Virus genome (UHGV): UHGV-1998140
Origin: a virus
Length of the DNA: 50,335 nt
Strand: one strand, 5' to 3'
Shown: positions 18,399 through 47,360 of the stretch, one piece after another
Layout: each line of letters opens with the position of its first letter
How positions within the stretch are numbered: position 1 is the first letter of the stretch
Translations under genes and position numbers: made by a program
Notes under the pieces: generated by a model
The model's input: only the letters and a program-made list of their open reading frames with translations
Databases searched by the model: none
Told to the model about the DNA's origin: nothing

Positions 18399-18426
18399 TT
18401 TCTGGTGGTGACGCGCTTGCGTCGGG

Positions 18427-19347: not shown

Positions 19348-19360
19348 GAGTTTTGCCTAT

Positions 19361-19384: not shown

Positions 19385-19407
19385 AATAGATATCGGAGGT
19401 GAGGCGC

Positions 19408-19755: not shown

Positions 19756-19847
19756 TTTTGCACCTGAAATGGCCTATGAATTATGCAGGTATATTATCAC
19801 TAAAATTGATGAAAGGGTGCCTGTAGCCAGCAAGACAACCACCTTAA

Positions 19848-23004: not shown

Positions 23005-23438
23005 CAGTCAAACTCATCAAATTCATTCCCGTCATCGTCCTGATCATTTTTGCCGCTGGTCATTCGGATACGGCTGAGCGGATCTAACCCCAGTAGCGAG
23101 CCCAGACGGGCTATCTGGGAAACAGAGTCATTTCTGACGTTTACGGCAGGATGTTTTTTTAACCCTCCCATTTCGCTTTCAGTTGTCAGCCCGTTAGCCA
23201 GTAATTTTTCGGCTTCGAGCATCAGATGGAAGGCGTTGCAGTAAGCCAGAAGTAAAGGGGCATCTTCAAGCTCAAAAACGCCTCTTTCGATCAGGATTTT
23301 ACTTTGAGTCTTCCATATTCTTATAGCCGCCTCCCCCATCAACTCAGCCGGGGGCGCGATTCGGGTCAGTTTACTTTTTTGCCCGGTGGGTAAAACGGGT
23401 TTTCTTCCCCCTCCAGACGATCTAATACCAGCAGCCAT
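23004..23438 (-). CDS. Terminase small subunit (P27-like)
   Basis: 144 aa with acidic C-terminal tail, strong RBS, immediately upstream of terL. Confidence 0.7.
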   Translation of the reverse strand: MAAGIRSSGGGRKPVLPTGQKSKLTRIAPPAELMGEAAIRIWKTQSKILIERGVFELEDAPLLLAYCNAFHLMLEAEKLLANGLTTESEMGGLKKHPAVNVRNDSVSQIARLGSLLGLDPLSRIRMTSGKNDQDDDGNEFDEFD

Positions 23439-23575
23439 AACTCCTCTTTTGATAGGTGAAACCTGCCGGAAAAAAGATCCTTATTTCTGGCGTGTAAAAA
23501 TGTCCTTCAAGCGGCAGTCCCAAAGCGCGAAAGGGGTCAGGGATTTGATCCCCCCTACCCCTGGCGGCAGCTGCC

Positions 23576-23776
23576 TCAGTCGAGGTGGAAGTCGTCATTC
23601 AGGTTGCGCCGACGACCGCTGCTCGCGTTGTGTGGGCAGGCACTCGAGTTATGCCCGGACTGACCGCAATAACTGCAGCGCAAATTGGCGCGACGTGAGG
23701 AACCACCCCACGTTTTCGGGCAGTTCGCGTATGTATGAAGCTGTGAACCGCAATAAGTACAGCGGGTATAACCCAT
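23576..23776 (-). CDS. Small protein with two CCHC zinc-knuckle motifs
   Basis: Two CX2CX4HX4C motifs (CTYCGSQLHTYANC and CSYCGQSGHNSSAC); start placed at third ATG, 4 nt after GGAGGG. Confidence 0.5.
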   Translation of the reverse strand: MGYTRCTYCGSQLHTYANCPKTWGGSSRRANLRCSYCGQSGHNSSACPHNASSGRRRNLNDDFHLD

Positions 23777-23806
23777 CATGCCCTCCATTCATTAAGAATG
23801 CCGTTA

Positions 23807-24247
23807 TCAGGTTTCAGTTGGTGCCGGTGCAACGCCACCATCAGCCTGCAGCACACTTTCCGGCAAACGCTCAATCAGCGGGGCATTCTCAAATACTTTG
23901 AGACCGTACTGGCCAACCCAAGTGCTTTCCTGCCCAACGCTGCCAGAGATGAAGTCCATCACTTCTGCCAACAGCTCTTTAACCAGAGCCTCCGTACGCG
24001 TCCGCCAGTGGCCTTCAATGGCGACCAGGAGAGGATCTGAACCGTTGGCAATACTTTGCTTGCCTACCGAGTAGGTTTTCTTTTTCGCCTTATCGGTCAC
24101 ACACTGCAGCTGTGTCATCAGGGCCAGAACAGCAATCGGAGTTGTATCGCGGACTTCGATAGTCATCGTGGCCAGCTTGTTACCCGATTCAGCATCAGTG
24201 GATGATGCGTAGTACATTGAAATGGTTAAATCATCACGACTGAACAT
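23807..24247 (-). CDS. Hypothetical protein
   Basis: 146-aa ORF in the HNH-terminase cluster, no recognisable motif. Confidence 0.45.
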   Translation of the reverse strand: MFSRDDLTISMYYASSTDAESGNKLATMTIEVRDTTPIAVLALMTQLQCVTDKAKKKTYSVGKQSIANGSDPLLVAIEGHWRTRTEALVKELLAEVMDFISGSVGQESTWVGQYGLKVFENAPLIERLPESVLQADGGVAPAPTET

Positions 24248-24249
24248 GA

Positions 24250-24546
24250 TTAATGGCTCCGGTTACGGTTGCGATTTTTATTGCGGTTACGCTGATGGCG
24301 CGGTGCGGTTTCGGCTGGCAGGTGCTCGCCTTCGAACGCTTGCGCTGGCTCTTGCGGTTGCGGTTGCGGTTGAGCGGGAACCAGTCCCTCGGGAATTTCA
24401 CCACCTACCTCAAACTTGAGATGCGGTTCTTTCCCCAAGAAATGGCTGAAGTTCAGGCCCGATAGTCCTGCATTGAGCATCGAGATCCCCTCGACATCAA
24501 CGGTAACGAGTTGGCCATCAACGTATTCAATTTTTAAATTCTTCAT
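24250..24546 (-). CDS. Hypothetical protein with PQ repeat and basic C-terminal tail
   Basis: ATG at 24546 overlaps HNH stop (ATGA); contains (GCGGTT)3 hexamer repeat encoding PQPQPQ and a C-terminal RNRNKNRNRNR tail. Confidence 0.5.
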   Translation of the reverse strand: MKNLKIEYVDGQLVTVDVEGISMLNAGLSGLNFSHFLGKEPHLKFEVGGEIPEGLVPAQPQPQPQEPAQAFEGEHLPAETAPRHQRNRNKNRNRNRSH

Positions 24547-24905
24547 CGTGTTCTCTCTGTTGCGGTTTTCGTTCTGTGGCACGGCCAGCACAACGATTCC
24601 AGATTGTAATTGTCATCAGTACCGCCGTGGGCTTTAGGAATGATGTGGTCGACGCTGGTAGCTTTTGTGGCGATACCGTGGCGTCGGCAGTTCTGGCAAA
24701 GGTATTTGTCGCGCACGAGTATCTGGGCACGAATGATTTCCCAGGAACGACCGTATCCGCGTTGCTGTCGGGTTTTTCCGGTCTGATAGTTACGCCAGCC
24801 ATCGCCAGTGTGTTGCTGCCGATGGATCTCGCAGTATCTAGTGGCGTCATTCGTCACTGCCGCGCATCCTCTGTGCCGGCAAGGTCGTTTAGCTCGTGGT
24901 GGCAT
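24543..24905 (-). CDS. HNH endonuclease (terminase-associated, HK97 gp74-like position)
   Basis: Cys/His HNH core (DHIIPKAHGG ... CWPCH); start placed at ATG 24905 (MPPRAKRPC) with GAGGA upstream. Confidence 0.8.
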   Translation of the reverse strand: MPPRAKRPCRHRGCAAVTNDATRYCEIHRQQHTGDGWRNYQTGKTRQQRGYGRSWEIIRAQILVRDKYLCQNCRRHGIATKATSVDHIIPKAHGGTDDNYNLESLCWPCHRTKTATERTR

Positions 24906-25053
24906 ACACATCCTCAAGCATGAATTTGGAGAGAGTAAAAGCGGCACTGTCGATGGGGAACTCTGAAACTGGCAACGATGCGAATGACAAATCGTCATAC
25001 GAAATCACCACCAGCTTCCCTCCTACGTATTCAATTTTTAAGCTCTTCATCAT
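24889..25053 (-). CDS. Small ORF, N-terminal paralog of 24250-24546 product
   Basis: 54 aa MMKSLKIEYVGGKLVV... shares its first ~22 residues with MKNLKIEYVDGQLVTV...; weak RBS. Confidence 0.35.
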   Translation of the reverse strand: MMKSLKIEYVGGKLVVISYDDLSFASLPVSEFPIDSAAFTLSKFMLEDVYATTS

Positions 25054-25224
25054 GTGGCATCACGAATACAAAAAGCCCCGCAGATGCGAGGCTACTGGTT
25101 ATACATCAGGGTGTTATTGATAGAGAGCAGCGTGTAAGGTTATCGCTCAGCCGCCTGTGGTGGGACACAGGTAGATATTGTAATTGCAGAGGGATAGCTG
25201 ATTAGCTCTGCTTAAGGAATAGAA

Positions 25225-25425
25225 ATGATTAAAAAGAATATGCACCTTCAAATGGAATCAAATGCCCAAACAATCGACGAATTGAACAAAGAAATTGGGC
25301 AACTGAAATGTGTCGTTGGTTTCTTAATGACTCAATTACCACCGCAATCTAGGCAGGCTGTCATCAATAATCTTGAGGAGTTTGGACTTGATGAGTCAGT
25401 TAAGGAATTTACTCAGTTCCTTTGA
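25225..25425 (+). CDS. Hypothetical small protein
   Basis: 66 aa, AAGGAA RBS 6 nt upstream of ATG, low-GC region. Confidence 0.45.
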   Translation: MIKKNMHLQMESNAQTIDELNKEIGQLKCVVGFLMTQLPPQSRQAVINNLEEFGLDESVKEFTQFL

Positions 25426-25809
25426 ACAAGGCTTGACCTAATAAATTAATGTACCAGCCTTGAGAATTTTTGGGTTGTGTCCCAGGCGAAGTAGTGGACT
25501 CGCTTCCTTCGCCTGAAACATTTTTTGGGTTTGAAGTTTTGACGTTCAACGTTTTCAAGTTATTCCTCCTTATTACGATCCCCGCTAAGTGATACAGACA
25601 GATTTATCCCTTGGTAGGGATAGATGTTCTCACCGATTCGTAAATCCGCTCACAGGTCATTCCTGCTTTGTAGCGTTCGTCTGCAATTGCAGCATACGCC
25701 ACGGGGATTAACTACTTATGTCTAACAATCGACAGTCTCATTGTTACAGCCATTAAAAAAACCACCCATGTGGAGTGCCCCCCGAAATGTGGCCTATCTG
25801 ATCGCTATG

Positions 25810-25941
25810 AAAAAGGCCGCAAAAGAGATGCGGCCTTTTGTCATGCACAGTTATCGATTAAATAAACTCTCAGGAGCCATCCGGGAGAGCATCACTTAAA
25901 CGGGTAACTGACCTCCGACAGACTGGTGTTGGGACGGAGGT
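25810..25941 (-). repeat. Structured element copy A (terminator hairpin + conserved box + second hairpin)
   Basis: GGCCGCA/TGCGGCC hairpin with flanking A/T tracts, box CTCTCAGGAGCCATCCGGGAGAG, hairpin ACCTCCG/CGGAGGT with GGTGTTG in loop. Confidence 0.45.
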
Positions 25942-26283
25942 GCAATGAGAGTAGTGTGTTTCATTTTTTTTCATACCAGCAAACACAAAATAATGGCAGT
26001 TCTTCCTGTTAATCGATAACTGCTATTCAATTAGTCTGGCCAGACGGATGATTATCCTGCCAGGAGTTATCACACTCACACAATGAAAATCTTTAAAAAA
26101 AATCCTTAGCCGGTTCACTCGCCTTCGAACAGGTGCAATGACCTTGCTCTGACGAAATTAGCTTTAATCGTTCGTTGCCATCTTCCGTACAAACAAAATA
26201 GTCACAAAAAAATAAAGGTTAAAAAGTGAGCTATTTACTGTCCTGTGGTGTATGGTTAGCAATCACTCACGAGGATAAAAACC

Positions 26284-26454
26284 ATGGCGATGCTCAAAGA
26301 CAAGATACGTACACTCAGACCTGTAAAAAGCACCTGTCCTCACTGCTCTCGCCAGTCAACACATAGCCTGTCGAGAATAAAAAACGATATAACATTGATC
26401 TGCCCATACTGCGGAAATATTTTCCTCCCCTCAGAAAGTAAACCTGTTAAGTAA
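26284..26454 (+). CDS. Small zinc-ribbon protein (56 aa)
   Basis: ATG with GAGGA 8 nt upstream; two CxxC pairs (CPHC ... CPYC); not in ORF track because <60 aa. Confidence 0.5.
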   Translation: MAMLKDKIRTLRPVKSTCPHCSRQSTHSLSRIKNDITLICPYCGNIFLPSESKPVK

Positions 26455-26697
26455 CTGATCGAATACTTTACTGAAGCTGAAGTCCACTCTCAGGCTTCAG
26501 TAAACGAAACGACTTAGCAATCAGCGTCAGGACGCGCTACAGCCTGTATCCAGCAGACCGCAAAAATAACGGCTCACTCCTTTCAGGCGATTCATTCGCT
26601 CAAAATCACCAGGAGTTAACATGCTTCTTCTCCTGCTTCTGATAATCAAAAAACCGCAAATGCGAGGTTTATTTGGTAAATATTGGTTTACCTGAAC

Positions 26698-26967
26698 CTA
26701 GGAATAATAGGCTGCGAAATGCTCCTCAACCTGCGCCCTTGTGTCTGCGCTCTCGTTTAATGTCAATGAGTCATAACCCTTAATGTGAAAAACAGGTTCA
26801 TATGCATAAACAGTAATCAATGCGTAAATTGCATTGTCAGTACCAGAAAAAATCTCATATTTCACACGCGACAGGCGCTTATGTTCATTAACTAACATGT
26901 ATGTTTCGATAAGCTTATGAGTAACCACGTTTTTTCCTTCATGACAAAAAAATCCCCTTTTAACCAT
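26698..26967 (-). CDS. Hypothetical protein
   Basis: 89-aa ORF in low-GC island; no convincing RBS. Confidence 0.35.
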   Translation of the reverse strand: MVKRGFFCHEGKNVVTHKLIETYMLVNEHKRLSRVKYEIFSGTDNAIYALITVYAYEPVFHIKGYDSLTLNESADTRAQVEEHFAAYYS

Positions 26968-27110
26968 ACGCGTTAGGAGCTAAGAATTGAAATTATTAGC
27001 ATTATCGAAGCCACTCGGCAGAATGGTCTCTGTGATGCATTTGCATTTGCATTTATCTTTGCCATGCGTACAAGCAAAATGGTGGCCTTACGGATGCCTG
27101 TTACGCACAA

Positions 27111-27241
27111 TAAAAAAGGCCGCAAAAAAATGCGACCTTTGGTTAGTACCAGTTAGAAAACTAAAATCTCTCAGGAGCCACCCGGGAGAGGCTTTTCTGT
27201 TTTTTAACTGACCACTGCCGTTTCGGTGTTGACTGGCAGTG
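27111..27241 (-). repeat. Structured element copy B (paralog of copy A)
   Basis: Same architecture as copy A; second hairpin stem changed to CACTGCC/GGCAGTG with GGTGTTG kept in loop; first hairpin has C-A mismatch on plus strand that is G-U on minus strand. Confidence 0.45.
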
Positions 27242-27412
27242 ATAACGTGATGATAGCTTCATTTAAGTTATCGATATCATTTAAATATCTAAAGAACTAT
27301 TTAAACCAATAATTCTCAACTCGCCGGAACATTCAACCATAGAAACAGGTTTCTATGCTGGTCTTTTGATGGTAAGCATCAATTCACCACAACCAGCTTA
27401 GTTGCTAATAAA

Positions 27413-27625
27413 TTATTCGGGGGTACCTTCAACGTTGAACCATAGATCTAAATGTTTAATGTAGCGCTGGATGGACACACAAATAACCACTCCATCTTTA
27501 AGGTTAACAGACTTAATAACACATCCTTTCGGTGCAAAATACTCCCCATCATAATGGGGGCGAATGGAATGCTCGTCTCCGTAACGATAACCGTGCGGAA
27601 GTTGAGGGAGTGAATTTCTTGTCAT
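27413..27625 (-). CDS. Hypothetical protein
   Basis: 70-aa ORF downstream of lysis cassette, weak RBS. Confidence 0.4.
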   Translation of the reverse strand: MTRNSLPQLPHGYRYGDEHSIRPHYDGEYFAPKGCVIKSVNLKDGVVICVSIQRYIKHLDLWFNVEGTPE

Positions 27626-27792
27626 GGGCAGCTTCTTAGATAAAAGGAATTTGAAAATCCATAGTGCATTAGCAACCTTGACTTAGATACCAACTTTTCA
27701 TTGTTTACTGCTCTAATATCTCGTTTTCAGATTTTTTGTTCATACGATGATTTAAATATCAATACCTTAAGCGTGCGACATTTATATCTGAT

Positions 27793-28023
27793 TTATCTTG
27801 CTCCCTTCTCTGTAAGCTGCGGGCAGTTGGCCTGCACGGATTTGTTGTACGCCAAGATGTCGCGCTTCGTCTGCTTATCCAGCACGTCAATATCGCGGTC
27901 AGTGAGATAGATAATTTTCGCCCACAGGCACCCTGTATCAACGACCACCGGGGCGGGTGAATTGCTCGCGCAGCTCACGATCAACATCGTCATCAGGCAT
28001 ATGGCTAACAGTCTGCTGTACAT
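27793..28023 (-). CDS. o-spanin (Rz1-like outer-membrane lipoprotein)
   Basis: Start at internal ATG (MYSRLLAICLMTMLIVSCAS) giving a lipoprotein signal with lipobox Cys; overlaps the i-spanin gene out of frame. Confidence 0.6.
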   Translation of the reverse strand: MYSRLLAICLMTMLIVSCASNSPAPVVVDTGCLWAKIIYLTDRDIDVLDKQTKRDILAYNKSVQANCPQLTEKGAR

Positions 28024-28216
28024 CACTGGCCTCCCTGGTGGCTTCCTCTTTCCGTTCTGCCGCAGCGACTCTGGCGGCGGCATCCTCTTCTGTACGTTTC
28101 TTCTCAGATTCCGCTACGGCTTTTTCACGACCGCTCATTCTGCCCAAACCAAATACACCCATGAGCAGAAGAACTGCCGCAGTGAGAAATGCCAGAATGG
28201 CTTTAATTTGCGTCAT
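27938..28216 (-). CDS. i-spanin (Rz-like)
   Basis: 92 aa, N-terminal TM helix then charged coiled-coil; directly downstream of endolysin. Confidence 0.6.
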   Translation of the reverse strand: MTQIKAILAFLTAAVLLLMGVFGLGRMSGREKAVAESEKKRTEEDAAARVAAAERKEEATREASDVQQTVSHMPDDDVDRELREQFTRPGGR

Positions 28217-28755
28217 AGCTTCACTCGCTCTTTCACCCAGCCATAAACGAACGACTCATTAGCCGAGCGCTGTTCAGCCAGTTCAAGATACCTTTGGCCC
28301 TGGCTGCAATTGAGAGCGCGCAGCAGCACTTCTTCACCTTCCTTACCCCGGGTATTCAGATAGGATTTCAAAGCATTGATGCTACGGGGTCCAATCTGCC
28401 CGTCAGCAATAAGATCTGGATAAAGTTTCTGTTGATTGTTGAAAACGTTCAGCCAGCGCTGGAACCATTTCACCTGAACAGATGGCCCCATATTTACGCC
28501 TGTATCGCACAACTCTGCCGCAATTGATGGAGAAACTGTCGCAACCAGGTCAAAGCGCGGCCCATACCAGTAATCGGCTGAAAGGATATCCAGAGCCTGC
28601 TGACGAGTCAGATCACGCATATCGCCTGAATAACCATGGGCACGGGCAACGGCCTGAGTAATCCCCCAGTTAGTTGGACCACCCTTGTCGTTTGGATTGT
28701 TAACATAGCCACCCTCTTTACCGAGGATGCTGTTGAAAATATCTTCTTTAGTCAT
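28213..28755 (-). CDS. Endolysin (GH108-like muramidase with peptidoglycan-binding region)
   Basis: 180 aa, N-terminus ILGKEGGYVNNPNDKGGPTNWGIT typical of GH108 lysozymes; flanked by holin and spanin genes. Confidence 0.75.
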   Translation of the reverse strand: MTKEDIFNSILGKEGGYVNNPNDKGGPTNWGITQAVARAHGYSGDMRDLTRQQALDILSADYWYGPRFDLVATVSPSIAAELCDTGVNMGPSVQVKWFQRWLNVFNNQQKLYPDLIADGQIGPRSINALKSYLNTRGKEGEEVLLRALNCSQGQRYLELAEQRSANESFVYGWVKERVKL

Positions 28756-38622: not shown

Positions 38623-39176
38623 GCGGATTTCTCCATACACATTGATTTATTCGCCACGACGCCCGGAGCTGCACACTCGCGGGCGTCACTCTTTTCTGCC
38701 ACACAAAACACCCGGTAAAGAAGCGTGATGTGTTCCTGAAATTTGGCGATTACCTGATAACTGTTTTCCTCAATCTGAGCACGCTCGGCATCATCAATAA
38801 CGCCGTCAGCTGTCGCTTTGCGTACAAAATTAGAATGCTTGCCGATCCACTCGATCGACTCCATTAAGCGCTGGTTAATATCGCCGTTATCGACATCTTC
38901 AATATCCGCCAACGGAACGAATACCCCACCTGATTGGCGCGCGATAGCGTCTGCGATATGATTTGCGCCACCAGCACGCTGGAGCACCATCACCCATCCA
39001 AGCGGGAAAATTTGATCGCCATCAACACGCAGGCGGTTAAACAAAGCATTTTCGGTTACACCGAGCCATTCAGCGGCTTCGCCATAACCCCCAGGCAATT
39101 CAGTGATCGTTTTCTTGATCGCGGCCACCAGCCAAGCAGGCTGACGCTCTACTTTCCAGATTGGCTCATTACCCAC
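38619..39176 (-). CDS. CII-like / early regulatory protein (uncertain)
   Basis: 185 aa immediately downstream of cro; HTH-like segment [18 protein letters not shown]. Confidence 0.4.
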
Positions 39177-39432
39177 GGTGACCTCTCTTTTTCTGTGGTG
39201 TAACTTCTTGTTTACTTTCCGTATGCTTCAAATACCGATGCGGATATAAAATCTGGAGTTCATCTATCTGGCCTGAAAAAAAATTGACCAGTTTCTCCGC
39301 AATGTCAGTTGACGCAACCTGTTGCCCTCGCTCGATTCGGCTCAAGTTTCCAGGATCAATATCTACTGCTGCAGCAACATGGGACAAAGTCATACCTTGC
39401 GACTTACGCAAGTATCTTAACGGTGATTGCAT
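39169..39432 (-). CDS. cro: Cro-like HTH repressor
   Basis: Start at ATG 39432 with AGGAGG 5 nt upstream; HTH LSHVAAAVDIDPGNLSRIERGQ; divergent from cI. Confidence 0.7.
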   Translation of the reverse strand: MQSPLRYLRKSQGMTLSHVAAAVDIDPGNLSRIERGQQVASTDIAEKLVNFFSGQIDELQILYPHRYLKHTESKQEVTPQKKRGHRG

Positions 39433-39447
39433 AAAACCTCCTTTAAA

Positions 39448-39510
39448 TTGCGCATTACGCATATTAAAGGGTACTTACGCCTTGCGCAAGTTGCTTTGCA
39501 TATAACGCAA
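39448..39510. promoter_or_regulatory. OR-like operator region with divergent PR / PRM promoters
   Basis: Three ~15-17 bp sites with TTGCG...CGCAA half-sites; PR -35 TTGCGC/-10 TAATAT (minus); PRM -35 TTGCAT/-10 TGTAAT ending 7 nt before cI ATG. Confidence 0.5.
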
Positions 39511-39530
39511 AAATGACTTGTAATTAACTT

Positions 39531-40226
39531 ATGAACATCGGAAAGCGAATCAGAGAACTACGCCTTGCAAAGGGCTTAAAAATAAACGACCTGGCTGATG
39601 CTTTGGGCATTGATGGCGCCAATATTTCTCGCATGGAAACAGGTAAACAGAAATCATTTACCGAACAATCCCTTAATCTTTATGCAAAGGCATTAGGCGT
39701 AGAAGTTGCTGAGCTCTTTACACCTCCCCAAAATGAAATTACTGTATATAATAACAGTATAAAACATCCAGTTCATGGAGAGGGTAGCTCGGTGTTTAGA
39801 GTGGAAATGCTTGATGTCAGTGCGAGCGCTGGTGGTGGATTTATTCAGGGCAGTGATGTTATTGATGTCATAAGGTCTATTGAATACAACAACGACCAAG
39901 CCATGACTTTATTCGGTGGCAGAACACCAGACTCAGTGAAGGTCATTAACGTTCGGGGCGACAGCATGGCTGACACTATTCAGCCTGGAGATTTGATTTT
40001 CGTCGATGTTTCAGTCAATAGCTTTGATGGCGATGGCATCTACGTCTTTGGTTTCGATGGCAAAATATATGTTAAGCGCCTGCAAATGATACCAGATAAA
40101 ATGCTCGTGATTTCTGATAATCCAAAATACAGAGAATGGGAAATCGATCGGGCTAATGAATACCGCTTTTGCGTTTATGGCAAAGTAATGATCAGCCAGT
40201 CACAAGCCTTCAAGCGCCACGGCTAA
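39531..40226 (+). CDS. cI: CI-type repressor (HTH plus S24 LexA-like peptidase domain)
   Basis: 231 aa; N-terminal HTH LKINDLADALGIDGANISRMETGK; C-terminal S24-like domain (RGDSMADTIQPGDLIFVD ... KIYVKRL). Confidence 0.9.
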   Translation: MNIGKRIRELRLAKGLKINDLADALGIDGANISRMETGKQKSFTEQSLNLYAKALGVEVAELFTPPQNEITVYNNSIKHPVHGEGSSVFRVEMLDVSASAGGGFIQGSDVIDVIRSIEYNNDQAMTLFGGRTPDSVKVINVRGDSMADTIQPGDLIFVDVSVNSFDGDGIYVFGFDGKIYVKRLQMIPDKMLVISDNPKYREWEIDRANEYRFCVYGKVMISQSQAFKRHG

Positions 40227-40244
40227 CCAGTTCCATTCATTTTT

Positions 40245-40267
40245 GCCGCCTTTATGGCGGCTTTTTT
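40245..40267 (+). terminator. Rho-independent terminator downstream of cI
   Basis: GCCGCC-tttat-GGCGGC stem followed by TTTTTT. Confidence 0.6.
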
Positions 40268-40280
40268 ACGCCCTCAAAAC

Positions 40281-40315
40281 TGCGAATTACGCAATTTTTA
40301 GTTGCGTAATTCGCA
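40281..40315. promoter_or_regulatory. OL-like operator palindrome
   Basis: Perfect 14-bp inverted repeat TGCGAATTACGCAA / TTGCGTAATTCGCA separated by 7 nt; same half-site family as the OR sites; TATTAT hexamer 7 nt downstream. Confidence 0.4.
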
Positions 40316-40434
40316 ACTTCATATTATCGTTGGTTGCATCGATAGCGAACAGGCAGGACGCCCACGAAGTAGCCGCCCGGGGCATATGAAGGCCGGGATG
40401 ATTCGCTAAGCAACCAGACAGCAGAGGCTTCAGG

Positions 40435-40647
40435 ATGAATTCAGCACAACGCCGTAAGGCATACCGCAAGCTACCAAAAGCTGGAGGAATTGTAGTTCTA
40501 CACGGTGTCCCTCGTTTAGTCCTAGGGTTATGCACATTTAACAGCTTTACGGGCGAAGAACGTAGCAAACCATCAGTAAACCGTATCAGAGTACAAATGT
40601 CAGGCGGCTCAACTGCGGCCCCCCTGGTGCGTAATTTGAAGTTTTGA
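40435..40647 (+). CDS. Candidate N-like antiterminator (very uncertain)
   Basis: 70-aa ORF with arginine-rich N-terminus MNSAQRRKAYRK in the position where lambda carries N; no RBS. Confidence 0.2.
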   Translation: MNSAQRRKAYRKLPKAGGIVVLHGVPRLVLGLCTFNSFTGEERSKPSVNRIRVQMSGGSTAAPLVRNLKF

Positions 40648-41378
40648 TTAAAAACAGGTGTCTTCGGGAGGGGTTGCGGAGCTGGATTGACCACCAGCAA
40701 CAGAAACTCACCCGACATACAGCAGCCGTTTAACCCACGGCGTCGGGGGTCCAGTAAACCTGGATTAATACTGTAGGGGTTGTGCCGGTTGGTCGCCGGC
40801 GCCCCGCCCGAAGACACCTGAGTTAACACAACATGAAAGCGCATTCCATCTTCATCCGTCGTGGGGACTGGTTTGTAACTGAAGGAGTGCGCTTCCAGTT
40901 GTGAACGGCAACATTCACACCGTTGTATGGCACATGCAACGTCAGCGGCCTGAGAGTTCCCTTTATCCATCAACTCTCAGAACACCGGAATGTGCAAGCC
41001 AGGTGTTTCAGGCACGACGTGCGCCCCACCAGCGCGGCGAAAAGGTGTGACGCCCGGGAAGAGTCCGGGACACAACAGGTAAGAGCATTCCCGCCACACG
41101 AGGCTGAAACCCAAGCGCCATGTGGATGCGCCGAAAAGCTACGACGGGGCGTTGGTAGAAGATCGGAGTGCTCTTTCCGTTGTGGTAATTGCGGCTATGC
41201 GCACGTGACGAGCCAAACCCGTTCAATGAATGCGTTTCCGGGAAGTGTACGTCGCCGGTTACTGGCTAAACCCGGCAGGTGGAGGCACCACCGCCACAAC
41301 CTAGTTAACTGTGCTGTGTGTGGTCTTGGCGGTTATCCAGTTTTCCACTATCCAAAGGAGGAAGAGGATAACGTTGTG

Positions 41379-41540
41379 ATGGATAACCGCCCTTTTTACA
41401 CAATACAAAAGAGCATCACCGGGCGACGGGCTCATTACCCAATCCACCCGGGCGGCATCCAAACCGCAGGTACTCTTCTGTGTTGTGTACGGAGAAATTC
41501 CCGGCGGTGGCAGCCGCCTTTCGAGAGGGTAAAACCATGA
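41379..41540 (+). CDS. Small basic ORF coupled to downstream gene (uncertain)
   Basis: AGGAGG/GAGG upstream of in-frame GTG 41376 and ATG 41379; TGA overlaps next ATG (ATGA); Arg-rich, may be non-coding. Confidence 0.25.
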   Translation: MDNRPFYTIQKSITGRRAHYPIHPGGIQTAGTLLCCVRRNSRRWQPPFERVKP

Positions 41541-41908
41541 GTAATGATCGCATGACAGTAGTGCCCGATTTCCTGGGTGAACTGGACGCCGGCGTGTTCA
41601 TGAACAAGATTGCGGCGGCTCTTAATACCACCGCGCTCGGCGTTCTGAACAACGGCAACAAAGGCAAGGTTGTCCTCACCTTTGATTTTGAGCGTATGGG
41701 CAACTCTGTTGAAGAGAAGCGCGTCAAGATTAAGCACAAGCTGAACTACAGCACCCCAACTCCCCGCGGCAAAGCGTCGGAAGAGGACACCACCGAAACA
41801 CCAATGTGGGTTAACAAAGGCGGCAAGCTCACTATCCTGCAGGAGGATCAGGGGCAACTCTTCGGTATCACCGGCACGGTGGACGGAAAGCTTAAAGCGG
41901 CTCAGTGA
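41537..41908 (+). CDS. Hypothetical early-left operon protein (YfdP-like position)
   Basis: Start at ATG 41537 (MSNDRMTVVPDF) inside the 142-aa track ORF; first clear gene after the non-coding region. Confidence 0.5.
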   Translation: MSNDRMTVVPDFLGELDAGVFMNKIAAALNTTALGVLNNGNKGKVVLTFDFERMGNSVEEKRVKIKHKLNYSTPTPRGKASEEDTTETPMWVNKGGKLTILQEDQGQLFGITGTVDGKLKAAQ

Positions 41909-41964
41909 TCCGCCCGCACAAATTCACTGATACCACTTCGCTAATCAGTTAATAAGGAATTTTT

Positions 41965-42792
41965 ATGTCTCAGTTAGACAGCGGTACTTTTCAGCAAGTT
42001 AAAGACCTAGTGCTTTCCGGTTATCACCTGAACGATATCCACGGCTTAGCCTGCCCGACCGCCCTACTACCACAAGACACCAACGTTGAAAGTCTGGAGC
42101 GTTTTGCTCTTGAGCGCTTCCGTTTCCGCGGTGCCATGGACACAACTAGCATTGACGATTTCGTTCGCTATTCCGTTGGTTATGCCCAGGAAGACGAAAA
42201 AGCCCGTTGCTTCATCGATGCCGATAGCATGCTGGCGCGCTCCATCTTCAATATCGGTACTCTGGATAACCCAGGCCACGCTGATAATGTCGCTTCGATC
42301 AAACTGAAGAAAACCGCACCGTTCCGCGCGCTGCTGTCGATCAACGGCGATCACCTCATTCAGAAGCAAATCGCCGAATGGCTGGAAGACTGGAGCGATT
42401 ACCTTATTGCGTTCGATGCCGACGGCAACACGATGAAAATCGCCCAGGCAGCACAGGCAGTTCGCCGCGTCACCATTCAGCAAACTAACGCCTCCGATCA
42501 TGAAGATGGTGATTTCAGTGGCAAAAAATCGCTAATGCAGAGTATCGAAGCCAGTAGTAAAGATGTGATGCCGGTAGCGTTCGAGTTCAAATGTGTGCCG
42601 TATGAAGGGCTCGGCGAACGTGCATTTAGCCTGCGCAACAGCCTGCTGAAAAGTAATGATCCGGTATTCGTCTTGCGTATTGTCCAGCTGGAAGCCCAGG
42701 AAGAAGCGATCGCCAATGAGTTCCGCGACCTGCTGACTAGTAAGTTCGACGGTAAGCCTGTGGAAACCTTTATCGGTAACTTCAAAGCCTGA
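41965..42792 (+). CDS. YfdQ-like prophage protein (DUF2303-like)
   Basis: 275 aa; size and synteny with a downstream HD-domain gene resemble the yfdPQR block of E. coli CPS-53; assignment from memory. Confidence 0.5.
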   Translation: MSQLDSGTFQQVKDLVLSGYHLNDIHGLACPTALLPQDTNVESLERFALERFRFRGAMDTTSIDDFVRYSVGYAQEDEKARCFIDADSMLARSIFNIGTLDNPGHADNVASIKLKKTAPFRALLSINGDHLIQKQIAEWLEDWSDYLIAFDADGNTMKIAQAAQAVRRVTIQQTNASDHEDGDFSGKKSLMQSIEASSKDVMPVAFEFKCVPYEGLGERAFSLRNSLLKSNDPVFVLRIVQLEAQEEAIANEFRDLLTSKFDGKPVETFIGNFKA

Positions 42793-42924
42793 TTGCTCTC
42801 CATTAAATCCCCGGCACCGCGGGGATTTATTAAAGCGTAATCCTGAAATTTATCGCCTTTTGGCGAGGGATTCTTACACCCAAAAACCAGCGCTGTGCAG
42901 AGCGCGATTAAATGGAGAAATACG

Positions 42925-43452
42925 ATGAGCTTTATTCAAACCTTTACTGGCAAACATTTTAACTATCTCGACATCCAGCTGGATGCCATTGAGATCGAAG
43001 ATATCGCTAACGCGCTCTCGAATATTTGCCGCTTTTCCGGCCATCTTCCAGAGTTCTACAGCGTAGGCCAGCACAGCGTATTAACCAGCCATCTGGTACC
43101 GCAGGAGTTCGCGCTTGAAGCACTGCTGCACGACGCCGCCGAAGCTTATTTGCAGGATATCCCAGCGCCGCTTAAACGCCTGCTCCCAGACTACCGAGCC
43201 ATCGAGGATCGGGTTGATGCTGCTATCCGTCAAAAATTTGGTCTGCCTTCTGAGCAGCACCCGACCGTCAAATATGCCGACCTGGTGATGCTGGCAAGCG
43301 AACGCCGTGATTTTGAAATCGACGACGGCACTCACTGGCCTATGCTCGACGGAATTATTCCCACCGACCAATTCGTTATCAATCCCGTTCGCCCGGGTCA
43401 GTGCTATGGGATGTTCATGAACCGCTTCAACCAGCTGATGGAGCGGCGCTAA
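42925..43452 (+). CDS. HD-domain phosphohydrolase (YfdR-like 5'-deoxynucleotidase)
   Basis: Start at ATG 42925 with GGAG RBS; HD-type motif region (LLHDAAEAYLQD). Confidence 0.65.
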   Translation: MSFIQTFTGKHFNYLDIQLDAIEIEDIANALSNICRFSGHLPEFYSVGQHSVLTSHLVPQEFALEALLHDAAEAYLQDIPAPLKRLLPDYRAIEDRVDAAIRQKFGLPSEQHPTVKYADLVMLASERRDFEIDDGTHWPMLDGIIPTDQFVINPVRPGQCYGMFMNRFNQLMERR

Positions 43453-43649
43453 TGGCACACGTAAAAGTAAAAGACCTCGTTGCGGCTGCACATGCCGCAT
43501 CACAAGATTTGCCACCAGCATCAGCGAAGTTAATGCGCGATACCGCTACTCGTCTGGACGTTACCTACGCCGCACTAACTGAAGCAATGGATCAAAACAC
43601 AGCGCTGGCGGCTATGTTAGCTGCAGCGCAGAAAAAGGAGAAAAATTAA
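43452..43649 (+). CDS. Hypothetical small protein
   Basis: 65 aa from ATG 43452 overlapping the upstream stop (TAATG). Confidence 0.4.
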   Translation: MAHVKVKDLVAAAHAASQDLPPASAKLMRDTATRLDVTYAALTEAMDQNTALAAMLAAAQKKEKN

Positions 43650-43650
43650 C

Positions 43651-44223
43651 GTGAACCATTTAATGATCGACCTCGAAACGATGGGCAATAAGCCTGCTGC
43701 ACCAATCGTTGCGATCGGCGCTGTATTCTTCGCCCCGAAAAGCAGTGAGTTGGGCGCAGAGTTCTATATGGCCGTTAACCTCGCCAGTGCTATGGATCAG
43801 GGTGCGACACCTGACGGTGATACTATCCTGTGGTGGCTCAAACAATCATCAGAGGCCCGAGCAGCTATTTGTACTGACGATACCAGAAGCATTACATTTG
43901 CTCTCTCCGAGTTGAGTTCATTTATCAGCCGTCACTCTGACAACCCACGATATCTGAAAGTCTGGGGTAATGGTTCTAACTTTGACAATGTGATTTTACG
44001 CTCAGCCTACGACCGCGCCGGCCAAACCTGCCCGTGGCAATTCTGGAACGACTGCGACGTGCGCACCATGGTGTTGCTCGGCAAACAACTTGGTTTCGAC
44101 CCTAAGCGCAAGATGCCATTTGATGGTGTAGCCCACAATGCACTGGCCGATGCTCGCCACCAGGCAAAATACGTGTCCGCAATCTGGCAAAAGCTAATTC
44201 CAGCCACCAGCACCGAAGAATAA
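43651..44223 (+). CDS. 3'-5' exonuclease (DnaQ-like DEDD fold)
   Basis: 190 aa; N-terminal MIDLETMG acidic motif and C-terminal H-x4-D (AHNALADA) typical of DEDDh exonucleases. Confidence 0.6.
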   Translation: MNHLMIDLETMGNKPAAPIVAIGAVFFAPKSSELGAEFYMAVNLASAMDQGATPDGDTILWWLKQSSEARAAICTDDTRSITFALSELSSFISRHSDNPRYLKVWGNGSNFDNVILRSAYDRAGQTCPWQFWNDCDVRTMVLLGKQLGFDPKRKMPFDGVAHNALADARHQAKYVSAIWQKLIPATSTEE

Positions 44224-44265
44224 ACCTCACGCCCGGGTGCAGCCGGGCTGTATGGAGATCCTGCC

Positions 44266-44475
44266 ATGGCAAAACTTATGAAAGCGAGTCAATGGGGAAA
44301 ACGCGAATTTACCAAAGACTCTATTCCGGATAATCGAACCATTAAACGTTGGGTCGAAAATGGCCTACTCACAGGTAAAATCGTCGACGGCTCTGTTTTC
44401 GTCTACGAATCTGAAAAATGGGGGGTCGACTCGATGGTTAATCATGCGGTTCGCCAGCTTATCAGTGAGGGTTAA
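44266..44475 (+). CDS. xis: Excisionase-like DNA-binding protein
   Basis: 69 aa immediately upstream of int; TIKRWVENGLL ... VDGSVFVY resembles Xis. Confidence 0.65.
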   Translation: MAKLMKASQWGKREFTKDSIPDNRTIKRWVENGLLTGKIVDGSVFVYESEKWGVDSMVNHAVRQLISEG

Positions 44476-44477
44476 CC

Positions 44478-45659
44478 ATGGCAGCAAGGCCAAGAAAAAG
44501 GGAATACCGCCATCTACCTGATTATCTAATATTTGATAAAGATCGCGGCGTTTATAAATTCACCTTAATTACAGGGAAGAAAAAGAACATTGGGAAAGAT
44601 CGGGCTATAGCCATCGCTATTGCGCGCGAATACAACCTCAGAATGCGGCAGGCAAATGCTCCGTCAGTTGAATTGCTTATCCGTGATTCTGGCGGCGTGT
44701 CGGGTGAAGCTAAACCTTTTGCCGAGCATGTTGATCACATCATGGCGCGTGCGATTGAAAATGAACGTCCGTCGCAAAATACGCTTGATGACTGGAACAA
44801 CGACGCACTAAGGGTGAAGGAATTCTTTAGCAACATACCAGCTTGCGATATTGAGCTGGAGCATGTGAACGCCTACATAAAGCATTACCACTCAGATTCA
44901 TCAGCGAACGTACAAAACCGGAAGGTCAGCTTCCTTAAAAAATTGTTCTCGTATGCGGTCGATGAATCATTGATGTTTGATAATCCTGCTACACGCAAAA
45001 AAATGCGAAGAACCGAAGAGAAGAAACGCCAGCGTCTTTCACTCGATAACTTTAAAGCCATTCGTCGGGCCGCCGAACCCTGGTTACGCACCGCGATGGA
45101 TTTAGCATTACAGACGACGCACGCTCGCCTTGAAGTGTCTAGGATTCGGTATTCAATTCGTGAACCTAAGAACGGTATTTGTGGTTGTGTATGGCTCGAA
45201 CAGCCAGAAGATGGCATATATGGAACGCTTTACATCCATCGTCAAAAGGTACAAAAGAAGGAAGCATCGCACGTTGCGATTCCAATTGGGGATGAGCTAA
45301 AGCGCATAATTGATGAAAGTAGGGATAACGTAGCTAGTCCGTTTGTTGTTCATCGGATTCCGGAGCGACAGGTTAAACGCAGTAAAGAAGTTTCACACCC
45401 AACTCAAGTTGCGCCTGACTATCTTAGTCGCTCGTTCTCCTCGTTACGCGATGAGCTAGGGCTTTGTGATCATCTTGCGATGGACGAACGCCCTACATTT
45501 CACGAGATCAGAGCCCTTGCAGCACATTTGTTTAATAGCCAAGGAATCGATCCTCAAGGCAGAATGGCTCACAGTGATGCAAAATCAACAAAGATTTATA
45601 CTCAAAACCACATTGATTGGATCGTCGTTCCACACGGGGAAATTAAATACAATGCATAA
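44478..45659 (+). CDS. int: Tyrosine integrase
   Basis: 393 aa, Arg-rich N-terminal arm-binding region, C-terminal catalytic region; 1.6 kb from the tRNA-derived att core. Confidence 0.9.
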   Translation: MAARPRKREYRHLPDYLIFDKDRGVYKFTLITGKKKNIGKDRAIAIAIAREYNLRMRQANAPSVELLIRDSGGVSGEAKPFAEHVDHIMARAIENERPSQNTLDDWNNDALRVKEFFSNIPACDIELEHVNAYIKHYHSDSSANVQNRKVSFLKKLFSYAVDESLMFDNPATRKKMRRTEEKKRQRLSLDNFKAIRRAAEPWLRTAMDLALQTTHARLEVSRIRYSIREPKNGICGCVWLEQPEDGIYGTLYIHRQKVQKKEASHVAIPIGDELKRIIDESRDNVASPFVVHRIPERQVKRSKEVSHPTQVAPDYLSRSFSSLRDELGLCDHLAMDERPTFHEIRALAAHLFNSQGIDPQGRMAHSDAKSTKIYTQNHIDWIVVPHGEIKYNA

Positions 45660-45693
45660 TGAAATTGGCCTCAAATGAGGCCAATTAGTGGGA

Positions 45694-46077
45694 TTAGGAA
45701 GCTTCTGACTTGGTCATATCAGCGCAACGCTGGATTAATTTCTCTGCAGTCTTAATTGCGGTGCTTGATTGGGTTGATGTAACAGTGTCGTTAAGTCTGT
45801 AATCACAAACTATTCTCTGATCCTTAAGCGATTGTAGAGCATACCCCAAACCAATTAAGTCTCTTTTATCAAAAGGTTCGTTGCCCTTCCAAGCATCGTT
45901 AACGAGATAGTCAATGAGGCCCTGGTGACTTTCCTTCGGCCCCATGGTCAAACACGGAAGTACGTGGTGATAGGCGCCATAATACGCACGAGCGACAGCA
46001 TTTCTGTAACCAATTTCGTCGTTACGTTTTTCACAATCTTTTGCGAAAGCGATAATCTCAGAACTATTAACTGGCAC
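45694..46077 (-). CDS. Hypothetical protein B of cargo operon (127 aa)
   Basis: GTG at 46077 with GGAGG 9 nt upstream, overlapping stop of gene A by 11 nt; contains RAYYGAYHH segment; no confident family. Confidence 0.5.
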   Translation of the reverse strand: MPVNSSEIIAFAKDCEKRNDEIGYRNAVARAYYGAYHHVLPCLTMGPKESHQGLIDYLVNDAWKGNEPFDKRDLIGLGYALQSLKDQRIVCDYRLNDTVTSTQSSTAIKTAEKLIQRCADMTKSEAS

Positions 46078-46882
46078 GCGCAGGTTCCTCCGAATGTCCT
46101 TCAAACCAGACGCTGAAAGGTTTTCCAATCAAACTTTCATTTTCTGCAAGAGAAAATGCTATATCTAGGTTCATATCAGAGAGAACATCAGAATCTTCAG
46201 TATTAACTGTCATGACATACGATGACGTCCGCTCTTCAGGGACAGAGCAGAAAGACATAGCAACAGGACCAACCTTATGGTAGCTCATGATATCCACAAT
46301 GCGATTTGCAATATCCTGGAATTCTTCATCAGTAATTCCAGTTGTACTTTTGAAAGTCGTGGATTGGGCCAGTGCTGTGGCTGCGAGGTGCTTAACCAAT
46401 TCAGCCTCCTTTTCATCTACCATACTTATCAACCTCTCAGCATAGTAGAGCGCTTTGTCAATACGCCCCAAGAACAAGTTGGCTTCCCATGCATGGGACA
46501 ACATTGTAGGCGAGTTATAACGTTCAACTAATCGATTTACCGCTTGTTCAACTTCACGAAAACTGCCGTAATCGTTAAGGTAAACTACATAATTTTGAGC
46601 AATGAGTAGGTTGTTATGCTTCAATGCTTCTTCAAAGAATGCAACAGCCGAATCCTTACGCCCAAAAGCACCATTAGCCAACGCTTTGAGATAGTCCTCA
46701 GATGCACTGTCGCGCAACTTTTCTATATCTCTTAGATATCGAAAATATTGCATTTCGGATATCGTACCCCGAGCCGCAAGTATATCGATTAATTCGCTGC
46801 TGATTTCGTTCGCTTTTAGCGCCAATTTTGGCATTAATTTTTCCTTAAGAAGCGTTAGCTCAGTTGCTTTTTCATGTAGCAA
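46067..46882 (-). CDS. Hypothetical protein A of cargo operon (helical, TPR-like)
   Basis: 271 aa, alpha-helical repeat-like composition; first gene of a two-gene operon between int and att core; AT-rich promoter region upstream. Confidence 0.5.
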   Translation of the reverse strand: MLHEKATELTLLKEKLMPKLALKANEISSELIDILAARGTISEMQYFRYLRDIEKLRDSASEDYLKALANGAFGRKDSAVAFFEEALKHNNLLIAQNYVVYLNDYGSFREVEQAVNRLVERYNSPTMLSHAWEANLFLGRIDKALYYAERLISMVDEKEAELVKHLAATALAQSTTFKSTTGITDEEFQDIANRIVDIMSYHKVGPVAMSFCSVPEERTSSYVMTVNTEDSDVLSDMNLDIAFSLAENESLIGKPFSVWFEGHSEEPARAS

Positions 46883-47272
46883 TCTTAGTAAGTCTGTGAA
46901 GAGTACACGAGGATGCTCTCGATTTCCAACGACCTGTATAACCCTAAAGGAATGTCAACTCTTGACAATTGAATAAATGCCACTTTCATCAACAAACGAA
47001 GATATCCACAGACACGCCTAATGCACAACTCTGTGGATAACTATTACTTACCCACAGAAATGTACTTTTCGCTCGGTTTGCAAAAAGTGCTATAGATGGG
47101 ACCTATTAATAACAGCAAGCAAAAACAAACTGTAAAAATTGTGGGGTAAAACTGACGTTAAGTATTTGATGTATATAGTGTGGATTTTGCATAAAGCGCA
47201 CTGTTTGTATATACAGTCGAATACACTCCAGAAGCAGTATTTACAAGGGCTCCAGCACCTTTACAGCAGTGA

Positions 47273-47318
47273 CATGGGGTGTCGGGGGTCGGAGGTTCAA
47301 ATCCTCTCGTGCCGACCA
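47273..47318 (+). other. Attachment-site core: 3' 46 nt of tRNA-Pro(GGG) (partial tRNA copy at prophage-host junction)
   Basis: CATGGGGTGTCGGGGGTCGGAGGTTCAAATCCTCTCGTGCCGACCA has the T-arm GGTTCAAATCC and acceptor 3' strand plus CCA; no matching 5' acceptor strand upstream. Confidence 0.7.
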
Positions 47319-47332
47319 AATAATCCCAGTAA

Positions 47333-47360
47333 AACCAGCCTTTTAAGGCTGGTTTTTTTA
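47333..47360 (+). terminator. Rho-independent terminator downstream of the tRNA-derived sequence
   Basis: AACCAGCC-ttttaa-GGCTGGTT stem followed by T7. Confidence 0.65.

What the first reader, a model, noticed from the sequence alone, without database searches (positions are those of the whole stretch)
47273..47360. Prophage-host junction: tRNA-Pro 3' fragment, terminator, then T6SS gene
Only the 3' 46 nt of tRNA-Pro(GGG), from the anticodon loop to CCA, is present, followed by the tRNA terminator and a GC-rich tssM-like gene. This defines the att core and places the prophage beside a type VI secretion locus. The intact tRNA should lie at the other prophage end outside the window.
Basis: partly seen in the sequence, partly recalled or inferred. 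Interest (0 to 1): 0.5.

Follow-up and report, generated by a model that had tools for sequence, protein, structure and literature searches.

The report
Prophage right end in tRNA-Pro gene
This is the ordinary right-hand junction of a ~54-kb lambda-like prophage inserted into the tRNA-Pro(GGG) gene (proL) of Klebsiella oxytoca, next to a type VI secretion gene.

Summary
Confirmed. Window 47273-47318 (+) is an exact copy of the last 46 nt (position 31 to CCA) of K. oxytoca tRNA-Pro(GGG), proL. No complete tRNA exists anywhere in the window. From 47273 rightward the window is 100% identical to prophage-free K. oxytoca genomes, where yejM, an intact proL, a terminator and tssM are adjacent. Left of 47273 the DNA is phage: a lambda-type integrase at 44478-45659, two cargo genes, and a P arm shared with Escherichia phage Flotzy's attP.

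The predicted second copy exists. A public contig that overlaps window 1-4494 at 100% identity carries yejM and an intact proL 6.4 kb left of the window edge.

One correction. The repeat flanking this prophage is 101 nt perfect (47273-47373) and 121 nt with 5 mismatches. It includes the terminator, because the K. oxytoca flank resembles a phage P' arm. In K. michiganensis and E. coli lysogens with 88-95% identical integrases, the host flank next to the displaced fragment differs from the phage P' arms within 3-11 nt after CCA. The working core is therefore the tRNA part.

proL is already a published phage integration site in Shigella and STEC. This is an ordinary feature of low interest.

The parts
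47273..47318 (+). Displaced 3' fragment of proL tRNA-Pro(GGG): standard position 31 (last base of the 5' anticodon-stem strand) through CCA, 46 nt
   Evidence: It is an exact match to the intact gene in empty-site K. oxytoca. No tRNA is called here.
47273..47373 (+). attR copy of the 101-nt perfect direct repeat that flanks the prophage; its attL partner is L119:9770-9870
   Evidence: the first mismatch is at 47374; 121 nt at 95.9% identity, 47273-47393.
47331..47360 (+). Intrinsic terminator of proL (stem-loop plus T run); it lies inside the duplicated block
   Evidence: dG -15.8, z -5.09. The same hairpin follows the tRNA in phage P' arms.
47081..47272 (+). Phage P arm of the att site
   Evidence: About 76-80% similar to the attP of Escherichia phage Flotzy and to E. 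coli proL prophage remnants. No similarity to the empty site.
47143..47153 (+). Candidate arm-type integrase site GGGGTAAAACT in the P arm (inferred)
   Evidence: The motif is conserved in Flotzy and E. coli T309 as TGGGGAAAAAC. The same motif occurs three times at 11-nt spacing in the P' arm (L119:9874, 9885, 9896).
47377..47398 (+). Two arm-type-like repeats (GGGGTGAAATT, GGGGTGTTTCG) in the 'host' flank. They are also present in empty sites and may be a relic of an older phage P' arm.
44478..45659 (+). Lambda-type tyrosine integrase, 393 aa, transcribed toward attR
   Evidence: Arm-DNA-bind_1 scores 27.8 bits against a cutoff of 22. PHROG integrase, 8.7e-31; lambda Int structures 1z1g/5j0n align over residues 4-359. 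It is 76.7% identical to Flotzy Int, 87.7% to the E. coli L099 Int and 91-95% to K. michiganensis proL prophage Ints.
44266..44475 (+). Possible excisionase, 69 aa, immediately upstream of int (weak evidence)
   Evidence: phrog_629 excisionase, E 0.0013. It is called as a gene in L100/L101.
45694..46834 (-). Two overlapping cargo genes of unknown function (127 and 255 aa as called) between int and attR, in low-GC DNA
   Evidence: phrog_5176 and phrog_17809, both of unknown function; no PADLOC hit. They are 92-96% identical to genes in E. coli proL remnants.
1..47272 (.). In-window part of the prophage. It runs off the left edge; about 6.3 kb more lies outside. It includes the giant tail-tip gene at 1-8052 (-).
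47678..50335 (-). 3' part of host tssM (T6SS membrane-complex protein; 1121 aa in complete genomes)

Best explanation
The feature is attR, the right junction of a ~53.6-kb lambda-like prophage integrated by site-specific recombination into proL, the tRNA-Pro(GGG) gene of Klebsiella oxytoca. In this species proL lies between yejM and the tssM end of a T6SS cluster. The phage attP carries a copy of the 3' part of the tRNA, from the bottom of the anticodon stem to CCA, plus a terminator. Recombination with the chromosomal gene rebuilt a complete proL next to yejM at attL. The rebuilt gene consists of the host 5' part and the shared core, followed by the phage P' arm with its own terminator. The other copy of the core was left as a non-functional 46-nt fragment at attR. 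At attR the phage P arm ends at 47272 and host DNA continues to the right. The enzyme is the lambda-type integrase encoded 1.6 kb to the left (shown by homology). I infer that it binds arm-type repeats of the form GGGG(A/T)(A/G)AAA(C/T)T: one in the P arm and three in the P' arm. I also infer that it exchanges strands inside the tRNA part, most probably at the 7-nt anticodon loop, which is flanked by stem-derived dyad symmetry in both attP and attB. In K. oxytoca the duplication reaches 101 nt because the chromosomal flank downstream of proL resembles a phage P' arm.
For: Fragment identity and absence of a cloverleaf. Empty sites in at least 9 K. oxytoca assemblies, with the break point exactly at 47273. 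attL: L119 is 100.000% identical to window 1-4494 and carries yejM, an intact tRNA-Pro(GGG) and the P' arm. The same left end occurs in CP130582.1 and other assemblies. Repeat length. Integrase. attP of a sequenced relative (phage Flotzy) lies directly after int and has the same 46 nt plus a terminator. A parallel complete case exists in the E. coli 51008369SK1 chromosome: yejM, intact proL, 47.2 kb of prophage, int, a second exact core copy, then yejO. The crossover is confined to the tRNA part. Host flanks next to attR (K. michiganensis, E. coli) and the phage P' arms seen at attL junctions in E. coli, IMG/VR contigs and K. oxytoca L106 part within 3-11 nt after CCA. The left limit of identity in relatives stays at tRNA positions 29-31.
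Against: attL comes from an overlapping public contig, not from the molecule the window was cut from. Linkage rests on 4494/4494 identical bases plus the matching right end in scaffold L100. No attP of this exact phage and no excision product was seen, so activity of the prophage is not shown. The Pfam catalytic-domain hit of the integrase is below the curated cutoff (21.9 against 27.1 bits). The strand-exchange position and the arm-type sites are inferred from sequence patterns only. The perfect 101-nt identity gives no internal marker in this lysogen.
Confidence: 0.93

Rival explanations
1. The fragment is an old scar of a decayed element at proL, unrelated to the large prophage on its left. 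Under this reading two elements would sit in tandem, as in some E. coli strains.
For: In E. coli T309.Ta3 and 51008369SK1 the homologous fragment and the same two cargo genes sit next to a recombinase pseudogene remnant, separate from an intact integrase.
Against: In the window the two cargo genes follow an intact integrase directly, with no second recombinase remnant. There is only one core copy in 50 kb. Relative to empty sites, the whole stretch from attL to 47272 is a single insertion bounded by one pair of repeats.
Confidence: 0.04
2. The tRNA fragment is an internal phage relic and the true phage-host boundary lies elsewhere. Such relics exist in some prophages.
For: L115 and L120 carry the same 46 nt plus P' arm inside prophages that sit next to ssrA (tmRNA). 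There the fragment is preceded by a TIR or DUF4236 gene, so it is not a junction.
Against: In the window everything from 47273 to the right end is 100% identical to prophage-free K. oxytoca, including tssM. Everything to the left is absent from those genomes. The boundary must therefore lie within 47273-47373.
Confidence: 0.02
3. The att core is just the 46-nt tRNA piece, and the terminator to its right is purely host DNA.
For: In K. michiganensis the host flank next to the attR fragment differs from the phage P' arms from 4 nt after CCA. In the E. coli lysogen L099 the two junction flanks part 8 nt after CCA. In those hosts the usable identity is therefore about the tRNA part.
Against: In this lysogen attL and attR are identical for 101 nt, including the terminator, and 96% identical for 121 nt. 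Phage attP regions carry their own copy of that terminator.
Confidence: 0.3

Closest known systems
int-attP module of Escherichia phages Flotzy (PP925827) and Eeyore (PP925821)
   Same: The integrase is 76.7% identical (Flotzy). The attP lies downstream of int and has the identical 46-nt proL segment, a homologous P arm, a terminator hairpin and GGGGAA repeats in the P' arm.
   Different: The host is E. coli, and there are no cargo genes between int and attP. The rest of the genome matches the searched part of the window (40000-47400) only in patches (31% covered). The P' arm differs from the K. oxytoca flank from the third base after CCA.
Published proL (yejM-tRNA-Pro-yejO) prophage site in Shigella flexneri 1c (gtrIC cryptic prophage) and STEC O121:H19
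   Same: The same tRNA gene next to yejM is used as a phage attachment site, with an integrase and prophage genes beside it (PMC4924310; PMC8767318). The same layout is seen in E. coli chromosomes.
   Different: In the Shigella case the integrase lies 210 bp downstream of the intact tRNA, so the orientation or element differs. In E. coli and Shigella the downstream neighbour is yejO/narP. In K. oxytoca it is tssM.
Bacteriophage lambda Int/attP system
   Same: A heterobivalent tyrosine integrase with an N-terminal arm-binding domain. The int gene is transcribed toward the att site. There are repeated candidate arm sites on both sides of a core.
   Different: Lambda integrates between gal and bio with a 15-bp core, not in a tRNA gene. 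The arm sites and accessory factors here are only inferred.
Integration into the 3' part of tRNA genes with crossover at the anticodon loop (Williams, Nucleic Acids Res 2002; cited from my own knowledge, not found in the paper library)
   Same: The identity block starts at the anticodon stem and runs through the 3' end, so the tRNA is restored after integration.
   Different: The crossover position was not determined here. The identity block is extended by a further 55 nt in K. oxytoca.

Membership tests
Prophage-host junction (attR) at a tRNA gene | Partial tRNA copy identical to the 3' part of an intact chromosomal tRNA gene | tested here: met
   46/46 nt match to K. oxytoca proL.
Prophage-host junction (attR) at a tRNA gene | Second copy, within an intact tRNA, at the other end of the element | tested here: met
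   L119 is 100% identical to window 1-4494 and has tRNA-Pro(GGG) at 9739-9815 next to yejM.
Prophage-host junction (attR) at a tRNA gene | Related strains with an empty site that lack exactly the DNA between the repeats | tested here: met
   L058, L062, L063, L103-L105 and L108-L112.
Prophage-host junction (attR) at a tRNA gene | Phage structural, regulatory and integrase genes inside the element | tested here: met
   The ORF map together with Pfam-annotated gene calls for the matching loci: tape measure, minor tail and tail-tip genes in L065/L066, and repressor, methylase and integrase genes in L100, which is 100% identical to window 34478-50335. Pfam hits for the window's own integrase and tail-tip protein. 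Similarity to phages.
Prophage-host junction (attR) at a tRNA gene | Demonstrated excision or circular attP form of this phage | not testable with these tools
   Only a relative's attP (Flotzy) was seen.
Intact tRNA gene | Complete cloverleaf recognised by tRNA finders | tested here: not met
   ARAGORN finds 0 genes in the window. Rfam gives no hit.
Lambda-type heterobivalent tyrosine integrase | N-terminal arm-type DNA-binding domain | tested here: met
   PF09003 scores 27.8 bits against a cutoff of 22. Full-length alignment to lambda Int chains.
Lambda-type heterobivalent tyrosine integrase | Catalytic tyrosine-recombinase domain | tested here: inconclusive
   PF00589 scores 21.9 bits, below the cutoff of 27.1. 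PHROG integrase families (8.7e-31) and lambda Int structures (3.9e-12) do match. Catalytic residues were not checked residue by residue.
Lambda-type heterobivalent tyrosine integrase | Arm-type binding sites in the P and P' arms | tested here: inconclusive
   A repeated GGGG(A/T)(A/G)AAA motif occurs at 47143 and three times in the P' arm at 11-nt spacing, and is conserved across relatives. Binding was not tested.
Anticodon-loop crossover class of tRNA integration | Strand exchange within the anticodon loop | not testable with these tools
   Only the left limit of identity (tRNA positions 29-31) and confinement to the tRNA part are shown.
T6SS TssM/IcmF | IcmF-related, helical and C-terminal domains, and T6SS neighbours | tested here: met
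   Pfam E-values 1.7e-56, 2.2e-43 and 2.2e-19. PAAR, Tle/Tli and VgrG genes lie downstream in complete genomes.

The most novel reading that the evidence does not exclude
The DNA just right of the fragment (47319 to about 47398) comprises the terminator plus two arm-type-like repeats and is also present in prophage-free K. oxytoca. It may be a fossil P' arm left by an earlier proL-integrating element. If so, the adjacent T6SS cluster may have entered as, or behind, a proL-integrated island. That cluster sits here only in K. oxytoca: K. pneumoniae, K. michiganensis and Raoultella have AI-2E transporter, ecotin and mqo genes at this position. The fossil would now give incoming phages an unusually long (101-121 bp) att homology.
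Probability: 0.35. Interest if true: 0.3.

Novelty: new member of a known kind. Interest (0 to 1): 0.12.

Why it matters
The finding fixes the right boundary of the prophage at 47273-47373. It shows that proL stays functional in the lysogen. It also shows that the T6SS gene is host DNA and not phage cargo. All of this is useful for annotation but not surprising. Integration of temperate phages into the 3' part of tRNA genes is textbook biology, and proL is already a reported site in Shigella and STEC. The only mildly unusual point is that the K. oxytoca flank looks like a phage P' arm, which doubles the length of the repeat.

Tried and rejected
1. An exact search of IMG/VR for the attR junction returned only one contig. 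It ends at the same host flank and is too short to reach attL.

2. I tried to reach the left end through homologues of the giant tail-tip protein. The closest full-length proteins (P0146, P0121) sit in related prophages integrated elsewhere, near thrS or a BLUF-EAL gene. The closest IMG/VR matches (L067, L068, L075) ended inside the giant gene, and none of the ten best (L067-L076) carried a tRNA.

3. The YejM cluster representative P0001 gave only empty sites and one contig broken inside the tRNA. The cluster member P0241 then gave both occupied and empty sites.

It worked after the protein received an id through the cluster look-up.

5. The tssM orthologues in other genera are not next to proL, yejM or AI-2E transporter genes, so they gave no comparable sites.

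6. The Rfam scan at E<=10 gave only sub-threshold chance or terminator-like hits. The consensus terminator scan missed the proL terminator.

7. PADLOC gave nothing for the two cargo genes.

8. The Williams 2002 paper on integration sublocations could not be found in the paper library.

9. I tried to find the far boundary of the K. oxytoca T6SS cluster through the AI-2E transporter gene. This returned only K. michiganensis-type contexts.

Full report
**Observation**

Window 47273-47318 (+) reads CATGGGGTGTCGGGGGTCGGAGGTTCAAATCCTCTCGTGCCGACCA. ARAGORN finds no tRNA or tmRNA in the 50,335-base window. Rfam finds nothing at gathering threshold, and no tRNA-model hit even at E<=10 in 47150-47450. 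A 32-nt part of the segment occurs once in the window, with none expected by chance. No other direct repeat of it exists in the window.

The RNA hairpin at 47331-47356 folds at -15.8 kcal/mol (z = -5.1) and is followed by a T run. The simple terminator scan missed it, probably because its stem extension consumed the T run.

The minus-strand ORF 47678-50335 carries the IcmF-related, IcmF_helical and IcmF_C domains. It lies in 65% GC DNA, against 41-54% for the preceding 10 kb.

**Organism and empty site**

The TssM fragment is 99% identical to Klebsiella oxytoca NBRC 105695. In that strain the end of tssM is followed, 363 bases on, by an intact tRNA-Pro with anticodon GGG (L058:540-616) and then by yejM.

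Aligned with that locus, the window is 100% identical from 47273 to the end of the compared stretch and unrelated to the left of it. The tRNA reads ...GCACCGT|CATGGGG and the window reads ...GCAGTGA|CATGGGG.

The same empty arrangement (yejM, proL, tssM of 1121 aa, PAAR, Tle/Tli, VgrG) is present in at least eight further K. oxytoca assemblies.

**The left side is a prophage**

From right to left the window holds:
- a P arm with no host counterpart
- two overlapping minus-strand genes of unknown function (127 and 255 aa)
- a 393-aa integrase at 44478-45659, preceded by a 69-aa possible excisionase
- early and regulatory genes
- candidate head and tail ORFs, and a tail-tip gene that runs off the left edge of the window (open frame 8052 to 1, 2684 codons)

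These come from the ORF maps. Function labels come from Pfam on the window's own proteins and from annotated calls for matching loci.

The integrase has the lambda Int arm-binding domain above Pfam's cutoff. It matches PHROG integrase families and aligns over its whole length to lambda Int structures. Its Pfam catalytic-domain score is below the cutoff, so that point rests on the other two searches.

The region 40000-47400 is patchily similar to temperate phages of Klebsiella, Citrobacter, Salmonella and Escherichia.

**attP in a sequenced relative**

In Escherichia phage Flotzy the attP lies directly after an integrase that is 76.7% identical. It contains a homologous P arm, the same 46 nt, a terminator hairpin of the same type, and GGGGAA repeats.

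**The other end**

I reached it in steps:
- Looking up the common K. oxytoca YejM sequence gave both empty and occupied proL sites.
- One occupied site, L107 (CP130582.1), overlapped window 1-3477 at 98.6% identity.
- Looking up the SRAP protein encoded next to that attL gave more assemblies.
- Among these, L119 (ENA ERZ1741929, a 67-kb contig) overlaps window 1-4494 at 100.000% identity.

L119 reads: yejM, tRNA-Pro(GGG) at 9739-9815, P' arm, SRAP, a 193-aa gene, umuC, umuD, and the tail-tip gene of 3571 aa. L119:16179 corresponds to window position 1. The intact tRNA therefore ends 6363 nt to the left of the window, and the inserted DNA is about 53.6 kb.

The right 15.9 kb of the window is 100% identical to another public scaffold, L100.

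**Size of the repeat**

Placing attL (L119) and attR (window) in register, identity is perfect from 47273 to 47373, which is 101 nt. The first mismatch is at 47374, and the 121 nt to 47393 contain 5 mismatches. The duplicated block is thus the 46 nt of tRNA plus 55 nt that include the terminator.

This happens because the chromosomal flank in K. oxytoca resembles phage P' arms:
- K. oxytoca flank: ...GGCTGGTTTTTTTATGCCTGTTTTTCGAGCGGGGTGAAATTGGGGTG
- this phage: ...CGTGCGGGGAGTTAGTGGGGTGAAACTGGGGAGAAAT
- phages in E. coli and other hosts have similar arms

In K. michiganensis and Raoultella the proL terminator is a different hairpin. In K. pneumoniae the flank matches only through the terminator.

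**Where recombination takes place (inferred)**

In K. michiganensis, prophages with 91-95% identical integrases occupy proL. Their attR fragments begin at tRNA positions 29-31. The host flank differs from the P' arms found at other proL sites from the fourth base after CCA.

In the complete E. coli 51008369SK1 chromosome two exact core copies lie 47.2 kb apart. One is the intact proL beside yejM. The other is beside yejO, after an 87.7% identical integrase. Their flanks part 8 nt after CCA.

A different K. oxytoca prophage (L106) differs from the host flank at +11.

Exchange must therefore occur within the tRNA part or just beyond it. The anticodon loop ATGGGGT is flanked by stem-derived dyad symmetry in both attB (CCGTC/GTCGG) and attP (GTGAC/GTCGG). 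This fits the known class of integrases that cross over at the anticodon loop. That assignment rests on my knowledge of Williams 2002, which I could not retrieve, and it is not shown here.

The repeated motif GGGG(A/T)(A/G)AAA occurs once in the P arm at 47143 and three times at 11-nt spacing in the P' arm. It is conserved in relatives and is a reasonable candidate for arm-type sites of an integrase that has an arm-binding domain.

**Comparison with what is known**

The tRNA-Pro gene between yejM and yejO has been reported as the attachment site of the cryptic gtrIC prophage of Shigella flexneri 1c (PMC4924310). It is also listed as a prophage site, proL, in STEC O121:H19 (PMC8767318). Every E. 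coli genome in the collection matches the tRNA part, and many carry the homologous P arm and cargo genes as remnants next to yejO.

The finding is thus a further instance of a well-known arrangement, here in K. oxytoca.

**Verdict**

One correction applies: in this lysogen the att repeat is 101 nt and includes the terminator. Interest is low.

The only reading with some novelty is that the K. oxytoca flank, and perhaps the neighbouring T6SS cluster, descend from an older proL-integrated element. I could not test the far boundary of that cluster.

Noticed in passing
window 47319-47398; L103, L058: The chromosomal flank downstream of proL in prophage-free K. oxytoca resembles phage P' arms. It has the same terminator and two GGGG(T)G repeats at 11-nt spacing. 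K. michiganensis and Raoultella have a different terminator, and K. pneumoniae matches only through the terminator. It may be the fossil of an earlier integration.
   Followed up: partly
window 47678-50335; L103-L110 versus L123-L130: A T6SS cluster (tssM, PAAR, Tle3/Tli3 or Tle1, VgrG) lies directly downstream of proL only in K. oxytoca. In K. pneumoniae, K. michiganensis and Raoultella, proL is followed by AI-2E transporter, ecotin and mqo genes. The T6SS cluster may itself be an island at this tRNA. Its far boundary was not reached.
   Followed up: partly
window 45694-46834 (-): Two overlapping genes (127 and 255 aa; phrog_5176 and phrog_17809, unknown function; weak TPR hits; about 41% GC) lie between int and attR. 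They are 92-96% identical to genes in E. coli proL remnants. In K. michiganensis prophages with 91-95% identical integrases, the same slot holds other single genes (426 aa with PIN_8/PIN_12, 444 aa, 366 aa). This looks like a variable accessory-gene slot. No PADLOC hit.
   Followed up: partly
window 1-8052 (-); L119:13467-20672: The tail-tip (GpJ-like) gene is giant, 3571 aa in full. It has FNIII-A_GpJ and Phage-tail_3 domains and internal repeats of 114-147 nt (families D1-D4). Short-read and IMG/VR contigs repeatedly break inside it.
   Followed up: partly
L115:8442-9890; L120:7901-9890: The same 46-nt proL fragment, P' arm and SRAP-umuDC module lie inside prophages located next to ssrA (tmRNA). 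There the fragment is preceded by a TIR-domain or DUF4236 gene. So in those cases the fragment is an internal relic and not a junction, which indicates mosaic exchange of integration modules.
   Followed up: partly
L106:12018-15570: A different prophage occupies proL in K. oxytoca CP011597.1. Next to attL it carries an S24 peptidase gene and a 494-aa reverse transcriptase (RVT_1).
   Followed up: no
L064 (Logan contig, SRR33880812), end of contig: The contig stops inside proL three bases before the repeated core. Contigs from empty-site strains run through. This is consistent with a duplicated core, and so a lysogen, in that sample.
   Followed up: no
L100:15901-15940 (about 40-80 nt beyond the window's right end): Relative to complete genomes, the scaffold that matches the window has a 10-nt length difference in tssM that changes the reading frame. 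The gene is called as 865 + 170 aa instead of 1121 aa. This could be a real frameshift or an assembly error.
   Followed up: partly
window 25807-25889 and 27110-27190: Two about 83-nt direct repeats lie 1.3 kb apart in the low-GC stretch 25-28 kb (families D9, D10 and D14). They were not examined.
   Followed up: no
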